From Candidatus Poribacteria bacterium (lineage in GTDB: Bacteria > Poribacteria > WGA-4E > WGA-3G), in NCBI GenBank assembly GCA_965200345.1, contig OZ241378.1, forward strand, positions 659,231 to 723,230: a stretch of 64,000 bases of DNA, in the 5' to 3' direction. Below, piece by piece: positions 11,233-60,278 of this stretch. Below the pieces are notes generated by a model, which had not been told where the DNA came from, made no database searches, and worked only from the letters and a program-made list of their open reading frames with translations. The number at the start of each line of letters is the position of its first letter. Position 1 is the stretch's first letter. Both the position numbers and the translations under genes were made by a program.

Positions 11233-12929
<1,697 letters not shown>

Positions 12930-13790: not shown

Positions 13791-14741
13791 ATGAAACACA
13801 TAAAAATTCCCGGAGTTAGTAAAGACATCTCACATCTGATTCTGGGCAGCATGATGTTTTCGCCTACAAGATTCGACTATAGCACTGAGATGCTTGACGC
13901 GTTTTTTGAAGCGGGTGGAAATGCCCTCGACACAGCACACGGTTATGGTGGTGGCGATAGTGAGATGCTGATTGGGCTCTGGATGCGGCAACGTGGGAAC
14001 CGAGACGATGTTTTTCTTATTGATAAAGGTGGACACCCGCAAGGTAGAGTGCCACGCCCGCGTCTGTCCCCTGAAGAGATTAAAGCCGATCTTGATGAAA
14101 GCATTACACGCCTCCGGACCGATTATATCGATCTTTACATGCTCCATCGCGATGACCCTGTAATTCCGGTGCGTACGATTATTGATTATCTGAACGAGGA
14201 GATCGGGGCTGGACGCATCCGAGCGATTGCTGCCTCTAACTGGCAACCGGAGCGTATTACTGAAGCTAACACCTATGCCGAGGAAAATGGACTCGCGGGT
14301 TTCGTCTCTTGTAGCAACAATATCAGTCTCGCTGTGCCGATGGAACCGATGTGGGGTGGGTGCGTCTGTGTTGATGGTGCCGCACGCGCATGGCATCAGG
14401 AGAGCCAATTCCCGTTGATGCCGTGGTCTTCGCAAGCACGCGGCTTCTTCAGCGGCGCGTTTACACCGGAGAACCGCGATAACGGAGATATGGTGCGCGT
14501 CTATTACAATGACGAAAACTTTGAGAGGCTTGCACGCGCAAAAAAATTAGGCGAAAAATACGGCTATTCCCCAATTCAAGTCTCCCTTGCATATTGCTTG
14601 AATATTTCGTTCCCAGTTTTCCCGATTGTTGGCCCCGCAACTTTAGAGGAAATGGATTCCTCGCTCGGCGCAATGAGCCTTGAACTCTCTGATGCTGAGA
14701 TGCAATGGCTTAACTTAGAAACGGATGGTGATCCCCTATGA
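13791..14741 (+). CDS. aldo/keto reductase
   Basis: AKR-family motifs 'GGNALDTAHGYGGGDSE' and 'IDLYMLHRDD' are present. The gene ends in TGA. Confidence 0.9.
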   Translation: MKHIKIPGVSKDISHLILGSMMFSPTRFDYSTEMLDAFFEAGGNALDTAHGYGGGDSEMLIGLWMRQRGNRDDVFLIDKGGHPQGRVPRPRLSPEEIKADLDESITRLRTDYIDLYMLHRDDPVIPVRTIIDYLNEEIGAGRIRAIAASNWQPERITEANTYAEENGLAGFVSCSNNISLAVPMEPMWGGCVCVDGAARAWHQESQFPLMPWSSQARGFFSGAFTPENRDNGDMVRVYYNDENFERLARAKKLGEKYGYSPIQVSLAYCLNISFPVFPIVGPATLEEMDSSLGAMSLELSDAEMQWLNLETDGDPL

Positions 14742-15817
14742 TGATTCGGATTTTTTATCTCCTACTCTGTCTTCAATTCATCCTTTTTCCGCTCGGCTTT
14801 GCCCAAGAGAGCTGAGGTGCTTGAAGCAATCTCGCGACTCCACGTGGCGGGATCGGTGAAGTCAGTTTGGCTTCAGGAGAGATGAAGAAATTTCAGGGCA
14901 CGTTCAGTATGATGCGGTGGTTTGACGCACAAGGTGGACACCTTGAAACAAAAGGGATTTCCCCAGAAGGAGAGGTAATAGATGTCCCGTTACATCGACA
15001 CCACGTTAAACTAAACATATTTCGCATTGACATTGGGTTGAAATATCAATTCAATTCCGAATGGATGTTAGAAGCGAATGTGCCATACGAGACCAAAATC
15101 CAAGAGGCAACCATTGAAGAAATTGATACGCTCACGGATGCACAACGAAAAGCAATTGCGCGCAATCGGGACAATCATCATCGCAATGAGACCTACGCGG
15201 GCCCTACGGATACGGACATCTTCTTAGGGTATCAGAGGCGAGACGTGTTTGTGGATCACGATTTCCTTGTGGGACGTATAGGAACGACGATTCCGCTTGG
15301 AAAAACCGAAGAGGATCCCTGGAAGTTAGGGGATGCAGGACTTAAGCATCTCCATATCCAGTTTGGTACTGGCACCTTTAATCCGATCGCTGATCTGCAT
15401 TACGGTTTGCCCGTCTACAAAGGTTTGCGAGCGAACGTCAGTCTCCGCGGAAAGTTGCCCTTCTATGAAAATAGCAAGACCTATCGCGCTTCGAGAGAGA
15501 TTACCTACACAGGTGGTCTGAATTATAGTTTCAGCGATTGGCTTTCGTTCCAAGTTGGCTATCTCGGCTTTTATCAATCCTTCGCCTATTGGGCAGGCGA
15601 ACAGGACATCAATTCCGGGCTCCGGTTCAGTATGGCATCTTTCGGAGCATCAGTTATAACGCCTTATAATGTGCCGTTGTCTCTGGCGGTGATGTTGCCC
15701 TTACATCAGGAGACGCTTTATGACGACACGAATGCTTTGTTGGATGGTACATACGAGGAGCGCGACGCCTTTGAATTCGGTCCCTTAGTATCATTAACGG
15801 TTTTATATGCATTTTAG
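14741..15817 (+). CDS. outer-membrane beta-barrel protein; candidate selenoprotein with in-frame UGA-Gly-Ala-UGA after the signal peptide (otherwise a nonsense-disrupted pseudogene)
   Basis: The ATG at 14741 overlaps the upstream stop. It opens the signal peptide MIRIFYLLLCLQFILFPLGFA/QES. TGA codons at 14813 and 14822 are in frame with ORF 14867..15817, which lacks its own signal peptide and ends '...LTVLYAF'. Confidence 0.45.
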
Positions 15818-15975
15818 AATATCGTTTTGCCTCTGAAAAAAGGCGTATTTTCATAAGAAGATGATAAAATTATTGAGACATCACAATACAATGCGAAGGA
15901 TCAATCAGAACTTACGCAAAGTTGAAGAGGTTCCCTTATTTACGGGTGCTAATATCCCTTACTGCCACGGACTCG

Positions 15976-15997
15976 GTGCGGTTAGAAACCGCACCTA
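15976..15997. repeat. REP-like hairpin GGTGCGGTT-agaa-AACCGCACC followed by CTAC
   Basis: A perfect 9-bp stem. It belongs to the GGTTT-loop-AAACC hairpin family seen throughout the window. Confidence 0.6.
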
Positions 15998-16034
15998 CCA
16001 GGGGGGTTGTGTAAGTCCTATCAATTTTAGGGCA

Positions 16035-18185
16035 TTGCTTTTAAGCAGATGTTTGATAGTCCTAATCGTACTCTCTTTTTTTCTGAGTTGCGGGGTGCCG
16101 AATAATCCGTATCCGAAATCCGAACAGGACGAGGAAATCTATTACAGCACCTTTAGTGAAGAACCGAAGCACTTTGATCCGGCAGTGTCCTACAGTTCAG
16201 ACGAATACAGGTTCATCCAGCAGATTTATGAACCGCCTTTACGGTATCATTACCTCAAAAGGCCCTACGAATTGATCTCACTAACGGCGGCGGCGGTCCC
16301 GCAACCCCAATATTATGATGCTGATGGCGAGCAGCTATCGTCAGATGCTCCTGCAGCGTCTGTCGCGCGCGCTGTGTATGAAATTCGTATCCGTCCCGGT
16401 ATCATGTATCAGCCGCACGCCTGTTTTGCAAAAGCTGAAAATGGCGTAATGCGGTACCACACCTTGAAAAAAGCAGACGTGAAGGGCTTTACCGAGATCA
16501 AAGATTTTCCGATGACAGGGACGCGTGAACTTATCGCAGCGGATTATGTCTACCAGATCAAACGGATGGCGGACCCGCGTCTCGCCTGCCCTATTCTTAG
16601 CACGTTGAAAGATTATATCCTTGGGATGGACACGTATTCCGCCGCGCTTGCTAACGGACAGGAAGAGGCACCCTTTCCGGGCGTGGAGGTCGTGGATCGG
16701 CACACCTATCGAGTTATCCTAAAAGCGAAATATCCGCAGTTTGTCTATTGGTTGGCGATGCCTTTCTTTTCACCGATGCCTAAAGAGGCGATTGACTTTT
16801 ACAGCCAACCCGTTATGAAGGAGCGGAACATCACGATTGATAGGTTTCCTGTGGGGACAGGTGCTTATCGGATAGAAACGCTCCTCGCACACAAGGAGAT
16901 CGTCCTGGTCAAGAATGAGAATTTTCGGGTTGAGCGTTACCCGTCGGGTGGGGAACCCGGTGATAGGGACGCTGGACTGCTTGACGACGCATGGGAAACT
17001 ATCCCGTTTATACCGAAAGTTGTCTACAAATTAGAAAAAGAATATATCCCGCGCTGGAATAAGTTCTTGCAAGGGTATTACGACAGTTCCGGCATCTCCT
17101 CAGATACATTTGACAGCGCGATTATGTTCGATGATACGGGGGATCCGAAGGAAAGTGAGGCATTGAAGGCGAAACATATTGTCCTACGTACGAGCGTAGA
17201 ACCGACGACTGTTTATCTCGCTTTCAATATGTTAGACGATACCGTCGGCGGGTACACCGCGGAGAAACAGAAACTTCGGCAAGCGATTTCGATCGCCTTG
17301 AATTACGAAGAGTATATTGAAATTTTTCTCAATGGACGGGGTGTTGTGTCACACAGTCCACTGCCGCCTGGTATCTTCGGCTACGAAGCGGGTGAGACGG
17401 GTATTAATCCATATATATACGACTGGGATGCAAGCACCAACCGTCCGGTCCGAAAATCTATTGAAGCAGCACGCCAACTGCTCGCAGAAGCGGGCTACCC
17501 GGGTGGACAGGATAGTAAAGGGAATCCGCTGATTGTCTCTTTTGACAACACGTGGAATTCGGCAGGTGCGACGTCCCGCTTAACGTGGATGCGAAATAAA
17601 TTAGAGCAGCTCGGTATCACGATGGAGAGTCGCACCACCGATTACAATCGATTTCGCGACAAAGTGAAAAACGGGAATTTCCAAATCATCTTATGGGGGT
17701 GGCATGCGGACTACCCCGATGCAGAAAATTTCCTGTTCCTTCTCTACGGTCCGAATAGTAAAGTCCTACGCGATGGCGAAAATGCGGCCAACTACGATAA
17801 TCCAGAATATAACCGGCTCTTTGAAACAATGAAAAACATGGAGAACTCGCCGGAACGGTTGACACGCATTCGCGAAATGAACCGCCTGTTACAACGCGAT
17901 GCGCCTTGGGTCTTTGTCTATCACCCTGTCGTTTTTGGTCTGTCGCATCAGTGGTTGAAGAATAGTAAACCGAGTGCTTTGGGGCGTGGAAACTTCAAGT
18001 ATCTCCGCATTGATGCCAGTCAGCGGACAGAAAGCCGTCAAGCGTGGAATCAGCCTATTGTTTGGCCCCTATGGGTCTGTCTCGGATTGCTGATCTTAGG
18101 CACGATTCCGGCTGCCATCACAATTTGGAAACGAGAAAGACAGACAAAACAGGCGCACATTGCTGATGAAGCGCCAGAAAATTAA
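16035..18185 (+). CDS. ABC transporter substrate-binding protein, family 5 (peptide/nickel type), lipoprotein with an extra C-terminal TM helix
   Basis: The sequence resembles the OppA/DppA/NikA family throughout. An in-frame TTG at 16035 gives the lipobox 'LSFFLSCG'. The maximal ORF starts at 15861 but would run through a REP hairpin. The C-terminal stretch 'IVWPLWVCLGLLILGTIPAAITIW' is hydrophobic. Confidence 0.75.
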   Translation: MLLSRCLIVLIVLSFFLSCGVPNNPYPKSEQDEEIYYSTFSEEPKHFDPAVSYSSDEYRFIQQIYEPPLRYHYLKRPYELISLTAAAVPQPQYYDADGEQLSSDAPAASVARAVYEIRIRPGIMYQPHACFAKAENGVMRYHTLKKADVKGFTEIKDFPMTGTRELIAADYVYQIKRMADPRLACPILSTLKDYILGMDTYSAALANGQEEAPFPGVEVVDRHTYRVILKAKYPQFVYWLAMPFFSPMPKEAIDFYSQPVMKERNITIDRFPVGTGAYRIETLLAHKEIVLVKNENFRVERYPSGGEPGDRDAGLLDDAWETIPFIPKVVYKLEKEYIPRWNKFLQGYYDSSGISSDTFDSAIMFDDTGDPKESEALKAKHIVLRTSVEPTTVYLAFNMLDDTVGGYTAEKQKLRQAISIALNYEEYIEIFLNGRGVVSHSPLPPGIFGYEAGETGINPYIYDWDASTNRPVRKSIEAARQLLAEAGYPGGQDSKGNPLIVSFDNTWNSAGATSRLTWMRNKLEQLGITMESRTTDYNRFRDKVKNGNFQIILWGWHADYPDAENFLFLLYGPNSKVLRDGENAANYDNPEYNRLFETMKNMENSPERLTRIREMNRLLQRDAPWVFVYHPVVFGLSHQWLKNSKPSALGRGNFKYLRIDASQRTESRQAWNQPIVWPLWVCLGLLILGTIPAAITIWKRERQTKQAHIADEAPEN

Positions 18186-31130: not shown

Positions 31131-33830
31131 CTAAAGTGGCTCCAACCGTACAGGACACACTTTTAGTTCGGCTGTGTGGGTAATCGGGTCGTAACCAGAA
31201 CCTGTCAATAGGTTGACAGGGACATCTGCGAAGCTAAAACTGGCGAAAACAGTCCCGCGCGGCGAACGGTTCGTCGCTTTGACTTTGATGTTGATACTGC
31301 CGCGTGCACTACTCATTTTACACCACTCTCCATCCGTTAGTTCCCATTTCTCAAGGTCTGCTGGATTGACCTCCAATGATTCTTCAGGCAAGAGGTAATC
31401 AATCCCCTGTGCCCTACCCGTCTGTGTTCGGGTGTGATAGGACTGCAAGCGTCTCCCTGTTGTGAGCCATACGGGGAAATCGTCGCTAATTGTCTCGGCA
31501 GGGTCTCGGTAATGTACATTTGAGAAAATACCACGACCGTTGACAAACGATTCCTCATGGAGCCGTGGTGTCCCCGGATGTTCCTTGTGCGGCACGGGCC
31601 ATTGGTATTCACTCTTGTCAATGCGTTCCCAATCTAATCCTGCGTAAATCGGTGAAACCCGACAGAGTTCATTGAAGACCGGTTTTGGCGTATCGAAATC
31701 GAAGCCTTCAAACCCGAGACGTTGTGCAATTTGGCAGATAATCCACCAATCCGGTTTCGCCTGACCCGGTGGTGGGACGGCCGCGCGCATCCGTTGAACA
31801 CGCCGTTCCGTATTTGTGCAGACCCCATCCGTTTCACCCCAAGCAGTTGCTGGTAGTACAATATCAGCGAGTTCAGCAGTCTCAGTGAGAAAGATGTCAA
31901 TAACGACGAGGTGCTCTAATGAACGGAGCGCGTGCTCACAATGCTCTCTATCCGGGTCGGAGAGCAACGTATTTTCGCCATCAATGAGCATCGCATGGAT
32001 GCTGTCCCCACAAAGTTCTAAGGCAGTTACTTTCGTGATGCCCTTCTCCAAATCAACGGCTTTGCCATACTCCGCTTTGAATTTCGCCTGATGTTCTGGA
32101 TCCGTAACGGCTTGGAAGCCGGGGTAGTTGTTCGGCAATGCGCCACTATCGCCTGCCCCCTGAATGTTGTTTTGCCCACGCATCGGATTGATACCTGTTC
32201 CCTCGCGTCCGACATTCCCGGTCATCAAGGCGAGATTGCAGAGGCTCTGAACATTCTCAACGCCACAGATATGTTCGGTGATGCCGAGTGTGTAGTAGAT
32301 AGCCCCTTTGTTCGTGCTGCCGTACCACATCGCCGCTGTCTCAATGTCCTTCGCGGGGACCCCTGTAATCGTTTCTGCCCACTCCGGGGTCCACTCACTG
32401 ATATGTTCAAAGAATTCGTCAAACCCAGTCGTGCGGTTTTCGATGAACGCTTCGTCAATCAAGCCTTCGCGGGCGATCACGTGTGCCATGCCAAGGAGCA
32501 GTGCTGTGTCGGAACCGACGCGGAGGGGTAGATAGAGATGCGACAACTCTGCCAACCCGATGCGTCTCGGATCCGCAACGATGAGTTTCGCACCACGTGC
32601 GATTGCCTTCTTAAGCCCCGTCGCCGCGACAGGATGACATTCCGTCATATTTGTGCCGATACAGAAGATGACCTCCGGTTTTTGCATATCAACGAGCGGG
32701 TTAGACATCGCGCCACGTCCGATTGTCGCTGCCAGACCGGCAACGGTCGGCGCGTGTCAGGCACGGCTGCAGTTGTCGATGTAGTTGCTCCCGAACCCTA
32801 CACGGATAAACTTCTGCATCAGATACGCAGCTTCACTCGGTGCCCGTCCGGAAGCGATGCCATAGATGCTGTGTCTACCGTGTTCAGCATTAATTTTTCG
32901 GAAACCTTCAGCGGCTTTCTCAAGTGCGTCCTCCCATGTGGCTTCGTGGAGTTCACCATCTGCCCCGCGGATAAGTGGGGTCTTTAACCGGTCGGGATGT
33001 TGCACGAAATCGTAAGCAAACTGACCTTTAACACAGAGCGCGCCTTGATTCGCGGGGCCGTCCATGGCAGGATGGATGCCAACAATCTTCTCATTTTTCG
33101 TGAGGATATCAACGGAGCATCCTACACCGCAGTATGGACAGATTGTGCGGGTTTTGTCAGGCATAGCATCAGCTACCTCATCAACCGCCCGGAGTGCTTT
33201 CTTGTCGGCGAGTGCACCTGTCGGACAGGTCTGGATACACTGCCCGCAAAACGTGCAGGCGGAATCCTTGAGAAGCCCATCAAACTCTGTGGTAATCTGT
33301 GTATGGAAGCCGCGGTTCATGACGTTGATCGCGTGGTCCCCCTCTTGTTCGGCACAGACGCGGACGCACCGATAACAGGAGATACAAAGTTCATAATCTC
33401 TGAGGATAAACGGATTGTCATCTTCGGTTTTATTACTGCCGGATTTCGCACCTGTCATACGGGTGCCGTTTACTGCATACTTGTCGCGGAGGTCCGCGAG
33501 TTCACCAGCAGCATAACCGCGTAACGGGGACACATCAACTTCACGATTCTCGCTGACAACCATCTCCAGCAGCGTCTTCCGGTACGCCTCTATTGTATCG
33601 GTCGCTGTGCGGACAACCATTCCCTCTGTGGCTTGCGTTGTACAGGATGCCACAGGGTTTCGCGCACCTTCTAACTCGACGATGCAAAGGCGGCAACCAC
33701 CGAAAGGCTCAAGCCTCGGATCATAGCAGAGCGTTGGAATCTCTTTTTGGTGGCGTTGCGCGACTTCAAGGATAGTTTCGCCTTCAGAAAAAGTGACTTC
33801 AATACCATCAATTTCCATGTTATGTTTCAT
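31131..33830 (-). CDS. fdhA: formate dehydrogenase alpha subunit (NuoG-like 2Fe-2S/4Fe-4S N-terminus + Mo/W-bisPGD domain), selenocysteine-containing (UGA at 32759..32757)
   Basis: ORFs 32757..33845 and 31131..32708 share a frame and are joined by a single TGA. The junction reads 'IDNCSRA-U-HAPTVAGL', which is the FDH active-site motif. A SECIS-like hairpin follows the TGA. Confidence 0.85.
32727..32745 (-). other. bacterial SECIS-like hairpin for fdhA
   Basis: CGUUGCC-GGUCU-GGCAGCG starts 11 nt after the UGA and has a GGUC-type loop, as in E. coli fdhF. Confidence 0.6.
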
Positions 33831-59235: not shown

Positions 59236-60278
59236 TAAAACACCTCAATATGCGCGGTTTCTCCTGCTACCACTTCTCCAATAACAGCGGCTTCAGGGCA
59301 ATCCGCTGCACGGAGCTCCGCTACCGCTGCATCAGCGTTCTCGGCGGGAAGTGAGAACAGCAAACCGCCGGACGTTTCCGCCTCCATCAGAATGTGATGC
59401 ATCGCCTCGCTATCTGTGTGGAACGTAACTTTGTCGGCAAGGAACGTCATATTCGCAAGATAGGCTTGCGTATAGGTATCCTGCGCGATGAGTGCCGGGG
59501 CATCTTCAAAGTGAGGCACGGCTTTGCTATCTATCTTAAGATGGGCATCATTGCCTGCCGCCATCTCCGAAGCGTGCCCTAACAACCCGTAACCCGTGAC
59601 GTCCGTGCAAGCACTTGCACCATACTTCAGCATCACCGTCGATGCTGAGGCGTTGAGCCGAGTCATCGATTCAACGAGTTGTGGTAGCACCGCATCGCTG
59701 ATCTTATCAAACTTCAAACCTGTGGTCAGAATACCGATACCGAGGTTTTTGGTCAAAATGAGGACATCCCCCGGGCGTGCCCCGTAATTTTTGACGAATT
59801 TCTCCGGATGCACGATCCCCGTTACAGAGAGTCCGTACATCAATTCTGGTGCATCTACCGTATGCCCACCGACAAGCGCAGCCCCCGCTTCAATCGCTTT
59901 TTCAGTGCCGCCCCTGACAATATCACCGAGGATTGATAAATCCAAGTCCGCCTTGGGCCAGCAGGTGATATTCAACGCCGTTTTCGGGACACCGCCCATA
60001 CTATAGACATCGCTCAGTGAGTTCGTCGCAGCGATCGCACCGAATGTATACGGGTCGTCAACGATAGGTGTGAAATAGTCAACCGTGTTGACGAGTGCAA
60101 GGTCATCAGAAATACGGTAAATTCCGGCATCGTCCGAGGTTTCGGTACCGACAAGGAGGTTCGGATCGGTGGATTTCGGGATGTTATCTAAAATGTGCGC
60201 CAGCTCCCCTGGAGCGAGTTTTGATGCTCACCCAGCGCATTTCACAGTCGCAGTTAAACGGATTTTCTGTTGTGTCAT
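59235..60278 (-). CDS. selD: selenide, water dikinase (selenophosphate synthetase), selenocysteine-containing (UGA at 60230..60228)
   Basis: Extending ORF 59235..59999 upstream in frame gives 'MTQQKIRLTATVKCAG-U-ASKLAPGELAHILDNI...GTETSDDAGIY...', the SelD N-terminus with Sec at the catalytic Cys/Sec position. Confidence 0.85.
60200..60218 (-). other. SECIS-like hairpin downstream of the selD UGA
   Basis: GCUCC-AGG-GGAGC begins 12 nt after the UGA and is extendable by two flanking pairs. It was folded by hand only. Confidence 0.4.

What the first reader, a model, noticed from the sequence alone, without database searches (positions are those of the whole stretch)
14741..15817. Signal peptide, UGA-Gly-Ala-UGA, then a beta-barrel in one frame: candidate Sec-x-x-Sec outer-membrane selenoprotein
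What the sequence shows:
- The ATG at 14741 overlaps the TGA stop of the aldo/keto reductase (ATGATGA) and opens a textbook signal peptide, MIRIFYLLLCLQFILFPLGFA/QES.
- The same frame then reads TGA GGT GCT TGA (14813..14824).
- It continues without any further stop into the 316-codon ORF 14867..15817.
- That ORF has no signal peptide of its own, yet it looks like an outer-membrane beta-barrel (alternating strands, C-terminal ...LTVLYAF).

Why recoding is plausible:
- The organism clearly inserts Sec at UGA (selD 60230..60228; fdhA 32759..32757).
- Two TGA codons spaced like a CxxC redox or metal motif, in an otherwise intact 1-kb frame with intact translational coupling, are hard to explain by random decay.
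- A hairpin GAC-UCC...GGG-AUC (14836..14854, GU in the loop) starts 11 nt after the second UGA, which is the fdhF-like spacing.
- A second 6-bp hairpin sits at 14858..14874.

A secreted or OM beta-barrel selenoprotein, and a U-x-x-U pair, would both be unusual. The gene sits directly upstream of a family-5 (peptide/nickel) ABC binding protein.
Basis: partly seen in the sequence, partly recalled or inferred. Interest (0 to 1): 0.8.

Follow-up and report, generated by a model that had tools for sequence, protein, structure and literature searches.

The report
Double-selenocysteine outer-membrane barrel protein
The two in-frame "stop" codons are almost certainly read as selenocysteine, which makes this a member of a widespread, uncatalogued family of outer-membrane channel proteins whose flexible N-terminal arm carries a Sec-x-x-Sec motif, probably used to handle copper- or mercury-like metals.

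Summary

- **Frame.** Window 14741-15817 reads signal peptide, UGA-Gly-Ala-UGA, then a roughly 12-stranded beta-barrel in one frame.
- **Conservation in Poribacteria.** In 80 Poribacteria genomes, 77 keep TGA/TGA and 3 have TGT or TGC at the first position. TAA and TAG never occur. The flanking "non-coding" segments show coding periodicity.
- **Cys counterparts.** Bacteroidota homologues carry Cys-Pro-Ala-Cys-Ser-Asn-Pro at the same place.
- **Breadth.** Other lineages (one cluster includes a Planctomycetota MAG) and soil, marine and rhizosphere metagenomes carry U-[GPASI]-A-U-S-N-P. At least 92 metagenome contigs do so.
- **RNA.** Two downstream hairpins covary across lineages.
- **Sec use.** The organism decodes Sec: selD and fdhA in the window carry UGA.
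- **Status.** The family matches no Pfam or NCBIfam model. It is annotated "hypothetical" and truncated everywhere, and it is absent from a May 2026 catalogue of 119 selenoprotein families.

Function is inferred, not shown. Family members sit beside or are fused to HMA, thioredoxin, DsbA, MerR and Cus-type genes, and the barrel has seven conserved His residues. In one operon the HMA partner's own CxxC site is replaced by two UGAs. The likely role is soft-metal and/or redox handling at the outer membrane.

The parts
13791..14741 (+). Aldo/keto reductase gene. Its TGA stop overlaps the start of the barrel gene.
   Evidence: Pfam PF00248, E = 1.7e-51. Immediately upstream of the barrel gene in 72 of 80 Poribacteria loci, but not in other lineages.
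14738..14803 (+). Signal peptide (M)MIRIFYLLLCLQFILFPLGFA. Start is ATG 14738 or 14741. The inferred signal-peptidase I site is after GFA, so the mature N-terminus would be Q-E-S-U-G-A-U.
   Evidence: An in-frame hydrophobic leader precedes the motif in all 80 genome loci and in the metagenome loci. Codon-position entropy is 0.63/0.25/0.99, coding-like. The cleavage site is inferred from the sequence.
14813..14815 (+). UGA1, read as the first selenocysteine of U-G-A-U.
   Evidence: TGA in 77 of 80 loci and TGT or TGC in 3. Aligns with the first Cys of CPAC in the Bacteroidota homologues.
14816..14821 (+). Gly-Ala codons between the two UGAs.
   Evidence: They vary only synonymously among the 77 UxxU loci (ggt/ggc/ggg/gga, gcc/gcg/gct/gca), apart from one ggg (Gly) at the Ala codon in L048; the three CxxU paralogues have Pro-Ala. 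In other lineages the first codon is P, A, S or I, with Ala kept.
14822..14824 (+). UGA2, read as the second selenocysteine.
   Evidence: TGA in 80 of 80 loci. Aligns with the second Cys of CPAC.
14825..14890 (+). Linker or arm (SNLATPRGGIGEVSLASGEMKK) between the UxxU motif and the first barrel strand. It contains the S-N-P signature, which is S-N-L in this allele.
   Evidence: Low-confidence, flexible region in both AF2 models. Codon-position entropy is 0.28/0.20/0.51, indicating coding sequence with extra constraint.
14829..14853 (+). Hairpin 1: a 7-bp stem (14829-35 with 14847-53) and an 11-nt loop. It starts 13 nt after UGA1 and 4 nt after UGA2.
   Evidence: Compensatory pairs (GC 16 / AU 7 / GU 6 at one pair). 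4 of 7 pairs covary across lineages. The loop lies 19-30 nt after UGA1 in all 152 sequences analysed.
14857..14875 (+). Hairpin 2: an 8-bp stem (14857-64 with 14868-75) and a GUU loop. By loop sequence it is SECIS-like. It starts 32 nt after UGA2.
   Evidence: 8 of 8 pairs show compensatory changes and 95.6% of cells are paired. G is in the first two loop positions in 67 of 76 and 74 of 76 sequences. Loops are GUC, GUU or GGUCN, resembling this genome's fdhA SECIS loop GGUCU.
14891..15817 (+). A roughly 12-stranded outer-membrane beta-barrel with helical inserts, ending ...LTVLYAF then TAG.
   Evidence: AF2 pLDDT 90.4, pTM 0.86. Foldseek top hits are FapF (5o65, 5o67) and COG4313 (4rl8), TM 0.53-0.70.
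14939..15355 (+). Span holding the conserved His/acidic residues: H39 (14939-41), H57-x-H59 (14993-15001), H118-H119 (15176-81), E122, D129, E162, and H175-x-H177-x-QFGTGT (15347 onward).
   Evidence: These columns are invariant or at least 90% conserved in a 65-sequence alignment with mean identity 39%. That they form a metal site is inferred.

Best explanation
**What it is.** Window 14738/14741-15817 is one intact gene for a secreted outer-membrane protein. Both in-frame UGA codons (14813, 14822) are recoded as selenocysteine.

**Mature protein.** It starts at about Gln-Glu-Ser-Sec-Gly-Ala-Sec-Ser-Asn. A flexible arm of about 25 residues follows, then a roughly 12-stranded beta-barrel. The barrel's inserts carry a conserved cluster of His, Asp and Glu residues.

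**Recoding.** It is directed by conserved mRNA structure inside the coding sequence.
- Hairpin 1 sits at SECIS-like spacing from UGA1.
- Hairpin 2 has a SECIS-like G/U apical loop further downstream.
- Whether these are two SECIS elements, one per UGA, or a single composite element is not resolved.

**Inferred function.** The N-terminal diselenol (a dithiol in the Cys forms) is a soft-metal-binding and/or redox-active site, with Cu(I), Hg(II) or Ag(I) as candidate metals. It lies at the periplasmic mouth of the channel.
- It is probably kept reduced, and loaded or unloaded, by a periplasmic HMA-thioredoxin partner.
- It probably passes the ion to or from the His-lined barrel for transit across the outer membrane.

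**Shown versus inferred.**
- Shown: gene integrity, UGA conservation, Cys/Sec correspondence, covarying hairpins, the barrel fold, and the metal/redox gene context of the family.
- Inferred: Sec rather than Cys insertion, which hairpin serves which UGA, the periplasmic location of the arm, metal identity, and transport direction.
For: **Frame and conservation**
- The frame reads as described.
- All 594 close homologues are called truncated, at about 302 aa.
- 80 genome loci have an in-frame signal peptide followed by the motif. Codons are TGA/TGA in 77 and TGY/TGA in 3, and never TAA or TAG.
- Coding periodicity is seen in the signal peptide and the linker.

**Cys/Sec correspondence**
- Cys forms with CPACSNP occur directly after the signal peptide in Bacteroidota.
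- U-P-A-U-SNP occurs in other lineages.
- Database entries with WGAW turn out to be TGA..TGA at the DNA level.
- 92 of 120 metagenome pattern hits encode the barrel in frame.

**Sec machinery and RNA**
- SelD and FdhA in the window carry Sec codons.
- The two hairpins covary and fit parts of the bSECIS rules.

**Fold**
- AF2 and Foldseek support a 12-stranded barrel.
- His residues are conserved across the family.

**Metal and redox context**
- HMA is fused to the barrel in one member.
- Thioredoxin is fused in 7 of 8 long members.
- An HMA-Trx or Trx gene lies directly upstream in 25 of 63 loci and in L084, L086 and L087.
- Nearby genes include DsbA and CusA/CusB, MerR, and YHS plus OEP next to the Poribacteria CxxU paralogue.
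- The partner HMA motif is itself replaced by two UGAs in L089. Its best match is NF041115, UxxU_metal_bind.
Against: - There are no protein-level data, so selenium incorporation is not demonstrated.
- Neither hairpin meets every published bSECIS rule. The hairpin 1 loop lacks the G rule in about half of sequences. The hairpin 2 loop is a median 40 nt from UGA2, outside the 16-37 nt range in most sequences.
- selA, selB and selC are not in the window, and ARAGORN finds no tRNA there.
- In the window and in most Poribacteria orthologues the neighbours are an AKR and, in 47 of 80 loci, a peptide/nickel-type ABC system. They are not metal genes. The metal role is therefore extrapolated from paralogues and other lineages.
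- The window's allele has Leu at the otherwise invariant Pro of S-N-P.
Confidence: 0.8

Rival explanations
1. The gene is recoded, but one or both UGAs are read as cysteine by a SECIS-dependent tRNA (tRNA-ReC / SelC*). The protein would then be CxxC or a mixed form in vivo.
For: PMC13582414 reports tRNA-ReC-like genes enriched in genomes with UXXU-type hydrogenases. It notes that either or both UGAs may then be decoded as Cys. Poribacteria are among the phyla in that data set.
Against: The window encodes Sec-type SelD and FdhA, so genuine Sec decoding operates in this organism. If Cys were intended, a single TGA to TGY change would suffice, yet TGA persists across many lineages. No tRNA could be examined.
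Confidence: 0.08
2. It is a genuine double-Sec protein, but the UxxU arm is mainly a redox centre. A diselenide/diselenol would cycle with thioredoxin and DsbA partners, as in SelL or Prx-like UxxU proteins, rather than acting as a metal-binding or transport site.
For: Thioredoxin is the commonest fused or adjacent domain. DsbA-like genes are nearby. Most known CxxC/UxxC selenoproteins are oxidoreductases (PMC13188914).
Against: HMA domains accompany the thioredoxin in the adjacent genes, and HMA is fused to one barrel. MerR, CusAB, YHS and P-type ATPase genes are in the neighbourhood. The partner's HMA metal motif co-switches to Sec. The barrel has conserved His residues. The two roles are not mutually exclusive.
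Confidence: 0.25
3. It is a pseudogene or an assembly artefact, and the two TGAs are real stops in a decayed or mis-assembled gene.
For: Every annotation pipeline calls the gene truncated and hypothetical. The window allele has an unusual P-to-L change in the SNP motif.
Against: The TGA pair is identical in 77 independent genomes, including complete chromosomes, and in at least 92 metagenome contigs. No TAA, TAG or frameshift occurs. The Gly-Ala codons between the TGAs vary synonymously, coding periodicity holds on both sides, and Cys codons sit at the same sites in homologues.
Confidence: 0.01
4. There are two separate products: a 24-residue leader peptide that terminates at UGA1, and a barrel protein initiated internally at TTG 14867 or a downstream ATG.
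For: This is the gene model produced by automatic callers.
Against: A beta-barrel outer-membrane protein without a signal peptide cannot reach the outer membrane. The leader is always in the same frame at a fixed distance. The Cys forms are single continuous ORFs. Internal start positions are not conserved across lineages.
Confidence: 0.01

Closest known systems
NF041115 'UxxU_metal_bind' HMA-type metal-binding (seleno)protein, and the Sec forms of MerT, MerP and CopZ
   Same: Two Sec residues replace the CxxC pair of a soft-metal site. Cys-form homologues exist, and the genes sit in heavy-metal contexts. In L089 an NF041115-like HMA(U..U)-thioredoxin gene lies directly upstream of a UPAU barrel.
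   Different: The window protein has no HMA fold. Its motif is on an unstructured N-terminal arm of an outer-membrane barrel. It is not a member of this family.
FapF and the COG4313 channel Pput2725 (PDB 5o65, 4rl8): 12-stranded outer-membrane channels
   Same: These are the best structural matches (TM 0.53-0.70). They are barrels of similar size with an N-terminal segment ahead of the barrel.
   Different: Identity is only 10-14%. There is no Pfam PF13557 hit for the window protein and no PDB sequence hit. Neither of these proteins has a CxxC/UxxU arm or the conserved His motifs.
Predicted outer-membrane selenoproteins: the MtrB/PioB-type GSU2204 family (NF041027) and the FCYXU-motif TonB-dependent receptor (NF049945), both listed in PMC13188914
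   Same: They are beta-barrel outer-membrane proteins predicted to contain Sec, so a precedent exists for exporting a selenoprotein to the outer membrane. From my own recollection, not tested here, MtrB-type barrels also carry an N-terminal CxxC.
   Different: Each has a single Sec and belongs to a different, much larger barrel family. Neither NCBIfam model matches this protein.
UXXU-type Group 4 [NiFeSe] hydrogenases (PMC13582414) and Prx-like or SelL-type UxxU proteins
   Same: Two UGAs are separated by two codons at a CxxC site. Poribacteria are among the hosts. The same open question applies: how are two adjacent UGAs decoded?
   Different: Those are cytoplasmic enzymes, for which a single downstream SECIS was proposed. 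Here two separate covarying hairpins follow the motif, and the protein is secreted.

Membership tests
Bacterial selenoprotein gene (Sec-UGA recoding) | In-frame UGA conserved among orthologues in an otherwise intact ORF | tested here: met
   TGA/TGA in 77 of 80 genome loci and in at least 92 metagenome contigs. Coding periodicity holds on both sides.
Bacterial selenoprotein gene (Sec-UGA recoding) | Homologues with Cys at the position aligned with UGA | tested here: met
   CPACSNP in Bacteroidota forms. TGT or TGC at position 1 in L075, L076 and L080.
Bacterial selenoprotein gene (Sec-UGA recoding) | Sec machinery in the same organism | tested here: met
   SelD and FdhA in the window each carry UGA at the Sec site. 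selA, selB and selC are not in the window, so they were not examined.
Bacterial selenoprotein gene (Sec-UGA recoding) | Selenium shown in the protein | not testable with these tools
   Requires 75Se labelling or mass spectrometry.
bSECIS consensus (3-9 nt loop, 4-16 bp stem, G in the first two loop positions, 16-37 nt from UGA; PMC13188914) | All four constraints met by one hairpin for a given UGA | tested here: inconclusive
   Hairpin 1 meets the spacing rule from UGA1 in 152 of 152 sequences, but the G rule in only about half, and its loop is often longer than 9 nt. Hairpin 2 meets the loop and G rules (141 of 152), but its spacing from UGA2 has a median of 40 nt and is in range in only 31 of 152. 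Both hairpins covary.
NF041115 UxxU_metal_bind / HMA (PF00403) | HMA ferredoxin-like fold carrying the UxxU or CxxC motif | tested here: not met
   No HMA hit for the window protein. The motif lies on a disordered arm.
COG4313 / PF13557 Phenol_MetA_deg and FapF | Sequence match to the family model | tested here: not met
   No PF13557 hit at E <= 1. Similarity is at fold level only. A few homologues carry precomputed PF13557 hits.
MtrB/PioB-type OM selenoprotein (NF041027) and FCYXU TonB receptor (NF049945) | Match to the NCBIfam model | tested here: not met
   NCBIfam scans returned only BamG at E = 0.03 and nothing for the Cys forms.
Outer-membrane beta-barrel protein | Signal peptide, closed antiparallel barrel, C-terminal aromatic residue | tested here: met
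   Signal peptide. AF2 barrel with pLDDT 90.4. C-terminus ...LYAF.

The most novel reading that the evidence does not exclude
This is a widespread, previously uncatalogued outer-membrane module. A 12-stranded His-lined channel carries a tethered N-terminal diselenol 'fishing line' that exchanges soft metals with a periplasmic HMA-thioredoxin partner, which is itself sometimes a double selenoprotein. Its two UGAs, three codons apart, are decoded with a bipartite or tandem SECIS: one hairpin is positioned for UGA1, and a second hairpin with a G/U loop sits beyond the canonical distance for UGA2. That would be a new SECIS architecture and a new route for metals across the outer membrane.
Probability: 0.3. 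Interest if true: 0.8.

Novelty: new member of a known kind. Interest (0 to 1): 0.66.

Why it matters
1. **Annotation.** Hundreds of database entries for this family are truncated "hypothetical proteins" that lack both the signal peptide and the functional motif. Recognising the recoding fixes the gene model across Poribacteria, at least one Planctomycetota MAG and many soil and marine lineages. It also adds a family to the prokaryotic selenoproteome, which listed 119 families in May 2026.
2. **Export.** It is a secreted double-Sec protein targeted to the outer membrane, so two adjacent Sec residues must pass through the Sec translocon and the BAM machinery.
3. **Decoding.** Two covarying hairpins follow two UGAs set 9 nt apart. 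This gives a natural, testable system for the open question of how UxxU motifs are decoded in bacteria.
4. **Metal biology.** The recurrent pairing of the barrel with HMA-thioredoxin points to an uncharacterised outer-membrane step in copper, mercury or silver handling. Cultivable Bacteroidota carrying the Cys form could be used to test it.

Tried and rejected
- **Rfam.** A scan of the whole window at gathering thresholds found nothing, not even for the fdhA or selD SECIS. Rfam is therefore uninformative here.
- **Pfam and NCBIfam.** Scans of the read-through product gave only sub-threshold noise: DUF3187, Pom and BamG.
- **PDB.** A sequence-profile search found nothing.
- **Read-through sequence.** I used the post-UGA2 product instead.
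- **Peptide/nickel ABC transporter as a partner.** I considered this and rejected it as general, because it follows the gene in only 47 of 80 loci. A weak terminator-like hairpin follows the barrel gene, but that pattern is no more frequent than chance.
- **Alternative genetic code (UGA = Trp or Gly).** Rejected. The AKR gene upstream ends in TGA, and the database entries reading WGAW are artefacts of gene calling.
- **Extended helix linking CUCC in the hairpin 1 loop to GGAG after hairpin 2.** By eye there is no covariation, so I did not pursue it.
- **Neighbour survey.** My naive ORF-based survey of high-GC metagenome contigs produced many shadow ORFs. Only the Pfam-confirmed neighbours are used.
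Full report
**1. The observation**

- Translating window 14741-15820 gives MIRIFYLLLCLQFILFPLGFAQES*GA*SNLATPRGGIGEVSLASGEMKK..., followed by an uninterrupted frame to ...LTVLYAF and TAG.
- The two stops are TGA at 14813-15 and 14822-24.
- The AKR gene (Pfam PF00248) ends with a TGA at 14739-41 that overlaps the ATG.
- A second in-frame ATG lies at 14738. Most orthologues read MMIRIF.
- SelD (VKCAG*ASKL) and FdhA (NCSRA*HAPTV) in the same window carry UGA at the canonical Sec sites.
- The description is therefore accurate.

**2. Is it more than chance?**

- A search with the read-through product found 594 homologues. The closest 120 are all from Candidatus Poribacteria-like assemblies, and almost all are called at about 302 aa. 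They begin at the equivalent of Met57 and have no signal peptide.
- I fetched 80 genomic loci at 92-58% identity, several from complete chromosomes. I translated the same frame upstream in each.
  - Every locus has a hydrophobic leader in frame.
  - 77 loci read QES*GA*SNPAIPRGG.
  - Three paralogue-like loci read QESCPA*SNP.
- At the DNA level the codons are TGA/TGA in 77 loci and TGT or TGC/TGA in 3. TAA and TAG never occur.
- In the 77 UxxU loci the Gly and Ala codons between them drift synonymously, apart from one Gly at the Ala position in L048; the three CxxU paralogues have Pro-Ala there.
- Codon-position entropy:

| Segment | Position 1 | Position 2 | Position 3 |
|---|---|---|---|
| Signal peptide | 0.63 | 0.25 | 0.99 |
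| Linker, UGA2 to Met57 | 0.28 | 0.20 | 0.51 |
| Barrel | 0.47 | 0.28 | 1.00 |

- The signal peptide pattern matches the barrel. The linker is coding but has extra third-position constraint.
- Decay, assembly error and a two-gene model are therefore excluded for practical purposes.

**3. Cys/Sec correspondence**

- An exhaustive search of 1.84 billion cluster representatives found 381 relatives.
- The full-length relatives carry a signal peptide followed directly by Cys-Pro-Ala-Cys-Ser-Asn-Pro. Examples are P0130, P0139, P0143, P0160 and P0182.
- A second search seeded with P0130 showed this Q[AG]CPACSNPALQSSEKLEAG form to be highly conserved in Bacteroidota: Saprospirales, Cyclobacteriaceae, Flavobacteriales and Terrimonas. 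All are annotated hypothetical.
- Other relatives again start abruptly after the motif. Their DNA reads signal peptide, then TGA CCN GCN TGA AGY AAC CCC, which is U-P-A-U-S-N-P (L086, L087, L089, L090), or U-G-A-U (L085, L088).
- Database proteins reading WGAWSNP are TGA codons translated under a TGA=Trp code.
  - 92 of them encode a barrel homologue in frame, at 23-80% identity.
  - They come from soil, rhizosphere, marine, freshwater and sponge samples.
  - The consensus is signal peptide, then U-[G/P/A/S/I]-A-U-S-N-P-x-[L/I/F]-P.
- One Sec-form cluster includes a Planctomycetota MAG.
- This pattern is the standard comparative signature of a selenoprotein family: UxxU, CxxU and CxxC forms at one site.

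**4. RNA structure**

Two hairpins follow the motif.

*Hairpin 1*
- Window 14829-35 pairs with 14847-53.
- It starts 13 nt after UGA1 and only 4 nt after UGA2.

*Hairpin 2*
- Window 14857-64 pairs with 14868-75, with a GUU loop.
- It starts 32 nt after UGA2.

*Covariation*
- On 30 Poribacteria sequences, 95.6% of cells pair, with compensatory changes in both helices. Slid registers give 29-52%.
- A covariance model built from that alignment found the site in 62 diverse loci. It found none in the two distinct Cys-form loci sampled (L081, L084).
- On that fitted alignment, hairpin 2 has compensatory changes at 8 of 8 pairs with 95.6% pairing. Hairpin 1 has them at 4 of 7 pairs. Slid registers give 33-51%.
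- The amino acids encoded over hairpin 2 differ completely between lineages (EVSLTS, SAGPAD, MEAGPVS). The conservation is therefore at the RNA level.

*Fit to the published bSECIS rules*
- The hairpin 1 loop is 19-30 nt from UGA1 in all 152 sequences analysed, which is within range. It has the required G in only about half of them.
[quoted passage not shown] Loops are GUC, GUU or GGUCN, like this genome's fdhA loop GGUCU, which sits 11 nt after its own UGA.
- However, hairpin 2 lies a median 40 nt from UGA2.
- In the CxxU paralogues, a hairpin 1 equivalent begins 14 nt after the single UGA.

*Reading.* I take this as a bipartite or tandem recoding signal. Which hairpin serves which UGA remains open. 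The first was drawn in the wrong register.

**5. The protein**

- AlphaFold2 with a 65-sequence alignment gives pLDDT 90.4 and pTM 0.86. The model is a barrel of about 12 strands with two helical inserts.
- The best PDB fold matches are FapF and the COG4313 channel Pput2725, at TM 0.53-0.70 and 10-14% identity.
- There is no sequence-level match to Pfam, NCBIfam or PDB.
- In the model of the full-length Cys form, CPAC lies in a low-confidence, flexible segment about 25 residues before strand 1.
- Across the family, at mean identity 39%, these residues are invariant or nearly so: H39, H57, H59, H118, H119, H175, H177, K91, E122, D129, E162 and the HLHIQFGTGTF motif.

**6. Functional context**

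- *Fusions.*
  - One barrel carries a C-terminal HMA domain.
  - Seven of eight long members carry a C-terminal thioredoxin.
  - Two show sub-threshold cupredoxin-like matches.
- *Upstream gene.* An HMA-thioredoxin gene lies directly upstream in L084, L086 and L087. An HMA-Trx or Trx gene lies upstream in 25 of 63 metagenome loci.
- *Other neighbours.*
  - HMA-DUF4396
  - DsbA and CusA/CusB
  - MerR
  - an anti-sigma factor with an HMA domain
  - what looks by sequence like a P-type ATPase (not Pfam-confirmed)
  - for the Poribacteria CxxU paralogue, a YHS/Met-rich protein and two TolC-like factors
- *Partner co-switch.* In L089 and L090 the upstream "thioredoxin" is really a lipoprotein HMA-thioredoxin. 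Its GMxCxxC motif is replaced by GMT-UGA-PSG-UGA. Its best NCBIfam match is NF041115, "UxxU_metal_bind". The partner's metal site has made the same Cys-to-Sec switch.
- *Inference.* The arm is a soft-metal and/or redox site serviced by HMA-Trx. An even-stranded barrel places its N-terminal arm and any C-terminal fusion in the periplasm.
- *Caveat.* In the window itself the neighbours are the AKR (72 of 80 loci) and a family-5 ABC system (47 of 80). No HMA-Trx homologue is present. The metal role for this particular orthologue is extrapolated.

**7. Comparison with what is known**

- The May 2026 review lists 119 prokaryotic selenoprotein families, each tied to a domain model. None corresponds to this family.
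- Precedents exist for each individual feature.
  - UxxU occurs in a Prx-like family, in NF041115 (HMA), in an FmdB family, and in Group 4 [NiFeSe] hydrogenases that include Poribacteria.
  - Predicted outer-membrane selenoproteins include the MtrB/PioB-type NF041027 and the TonB receptor NF049945.
- Full-text searches found no paper describing this barrel.
- I therefore rate it a new member of a known kind: a new selenoprotein family. Its double-hairpin signal is unusual, and the underlying protein family is uncharacterised.

**8. Residual doubts**

- There is no protein-level evidence.
- UGA could be read as Cys by tRNA-ReC.
- The SECIS assignment is unresolved.
- The window allele carries Leu at the invariant Pro of S-N-P, which keeps a G-U pair in hairpin 1.
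- The function is inferred from context.

Noticed in passing
L089:4150-4890 (and the identical L090): The gene called as a 168-aa thioredoxin extends upstream in frame to a lipoprotein signal peptide and an HMA domain. Its metal motif reads GMT-TGA-PSG-TGA, so it is a second double-UGA (Sec) gene. It lies directly upstream of the UPAU barrel and downstream of a MerR regulator, inside a mobile-element context (Mu-like transposase, ArdA).
   Followed up: partly
window 14825-14842: The window's allele reads S-N-L-A-T-P where all 80 related genome loci read S-N-P-(A/T/V/G)-(I/L/V)-P. The CCC-to-CTC change keeps a G-U pair in hairpin 1. It could be a real variant, relaxed constraint or a sequence error.
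   Followed up: partly
window 32716-32759 (- strand): The fdhA Sec codon is followed by a textbook SECIS: UGA, 11 nt, then CGUUGCC-GGUCU-GGCAGCG. The selD UGA (60228-60230, - strand) has no comparably strong hairpin in the minimum-free-energy fold.
   Followed up: partly
window 11233-12929: An LRR protein with long PQ-rich and poly-Glu low-complexity tracts (11233-12507) overlaps, in another frame, an ORF carrying FlgD-Ig and type IX secretion C-terminal sorting domains (12396-12929). This could be one gene split by a frameshift, or programmed or erroneous slippage in the repeats.
   Followed up: no
window 14804-14806, and the Bacteroidota homologues (P0270-P0350): The predicted mature N-terminus is Gln in both Poribacteria (GFA|QES) and Bacteroidota (FA|QACPAC). 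From my own recollection, this fits the Bacteroidetes 'Q-rule' of N-terminal pyroglutamate. The metal/redox motif would then sit 1-3 residues from a blocked N-terminus.
   Followed up: no
L116:8680-9676 (oriented as the match): Directly downstream of a UPAU barrel lies a second, divergent barrel paralogue with a Cys-form N-terminus (AGCGSASCPLD) and HHDE/HEHH motifs. This is a tandem Sec-form and Cys-form pair in one locus.
   Followed up: no
P0206 and P0186 (database proteins); L085:848-1000: Public protein sets contain WGAWSNP and CSLWSNP versions of this family. At least the first is TGA translated as Trp by a gene caller using an alternative code.
   Followed up: partly
window 15861-18185: The family-5 solute-binding protein is unusually long (774 aa). 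It has an N-terminal extension and a C-terminal hydrophobic segment (WPLWVCLGLLILGTIPAAITIW), which suggests a membrane-anchored binding protein.
   Followed up: no
L075:2281-2721, and L095, L108 and L170 upstream ORFs: Small Cys-rich secreted proteins with CC and CxxC clusters and no Pfam match recur upstream of several barrel genes. They may be further metal-binding partners.
   Followed up: no
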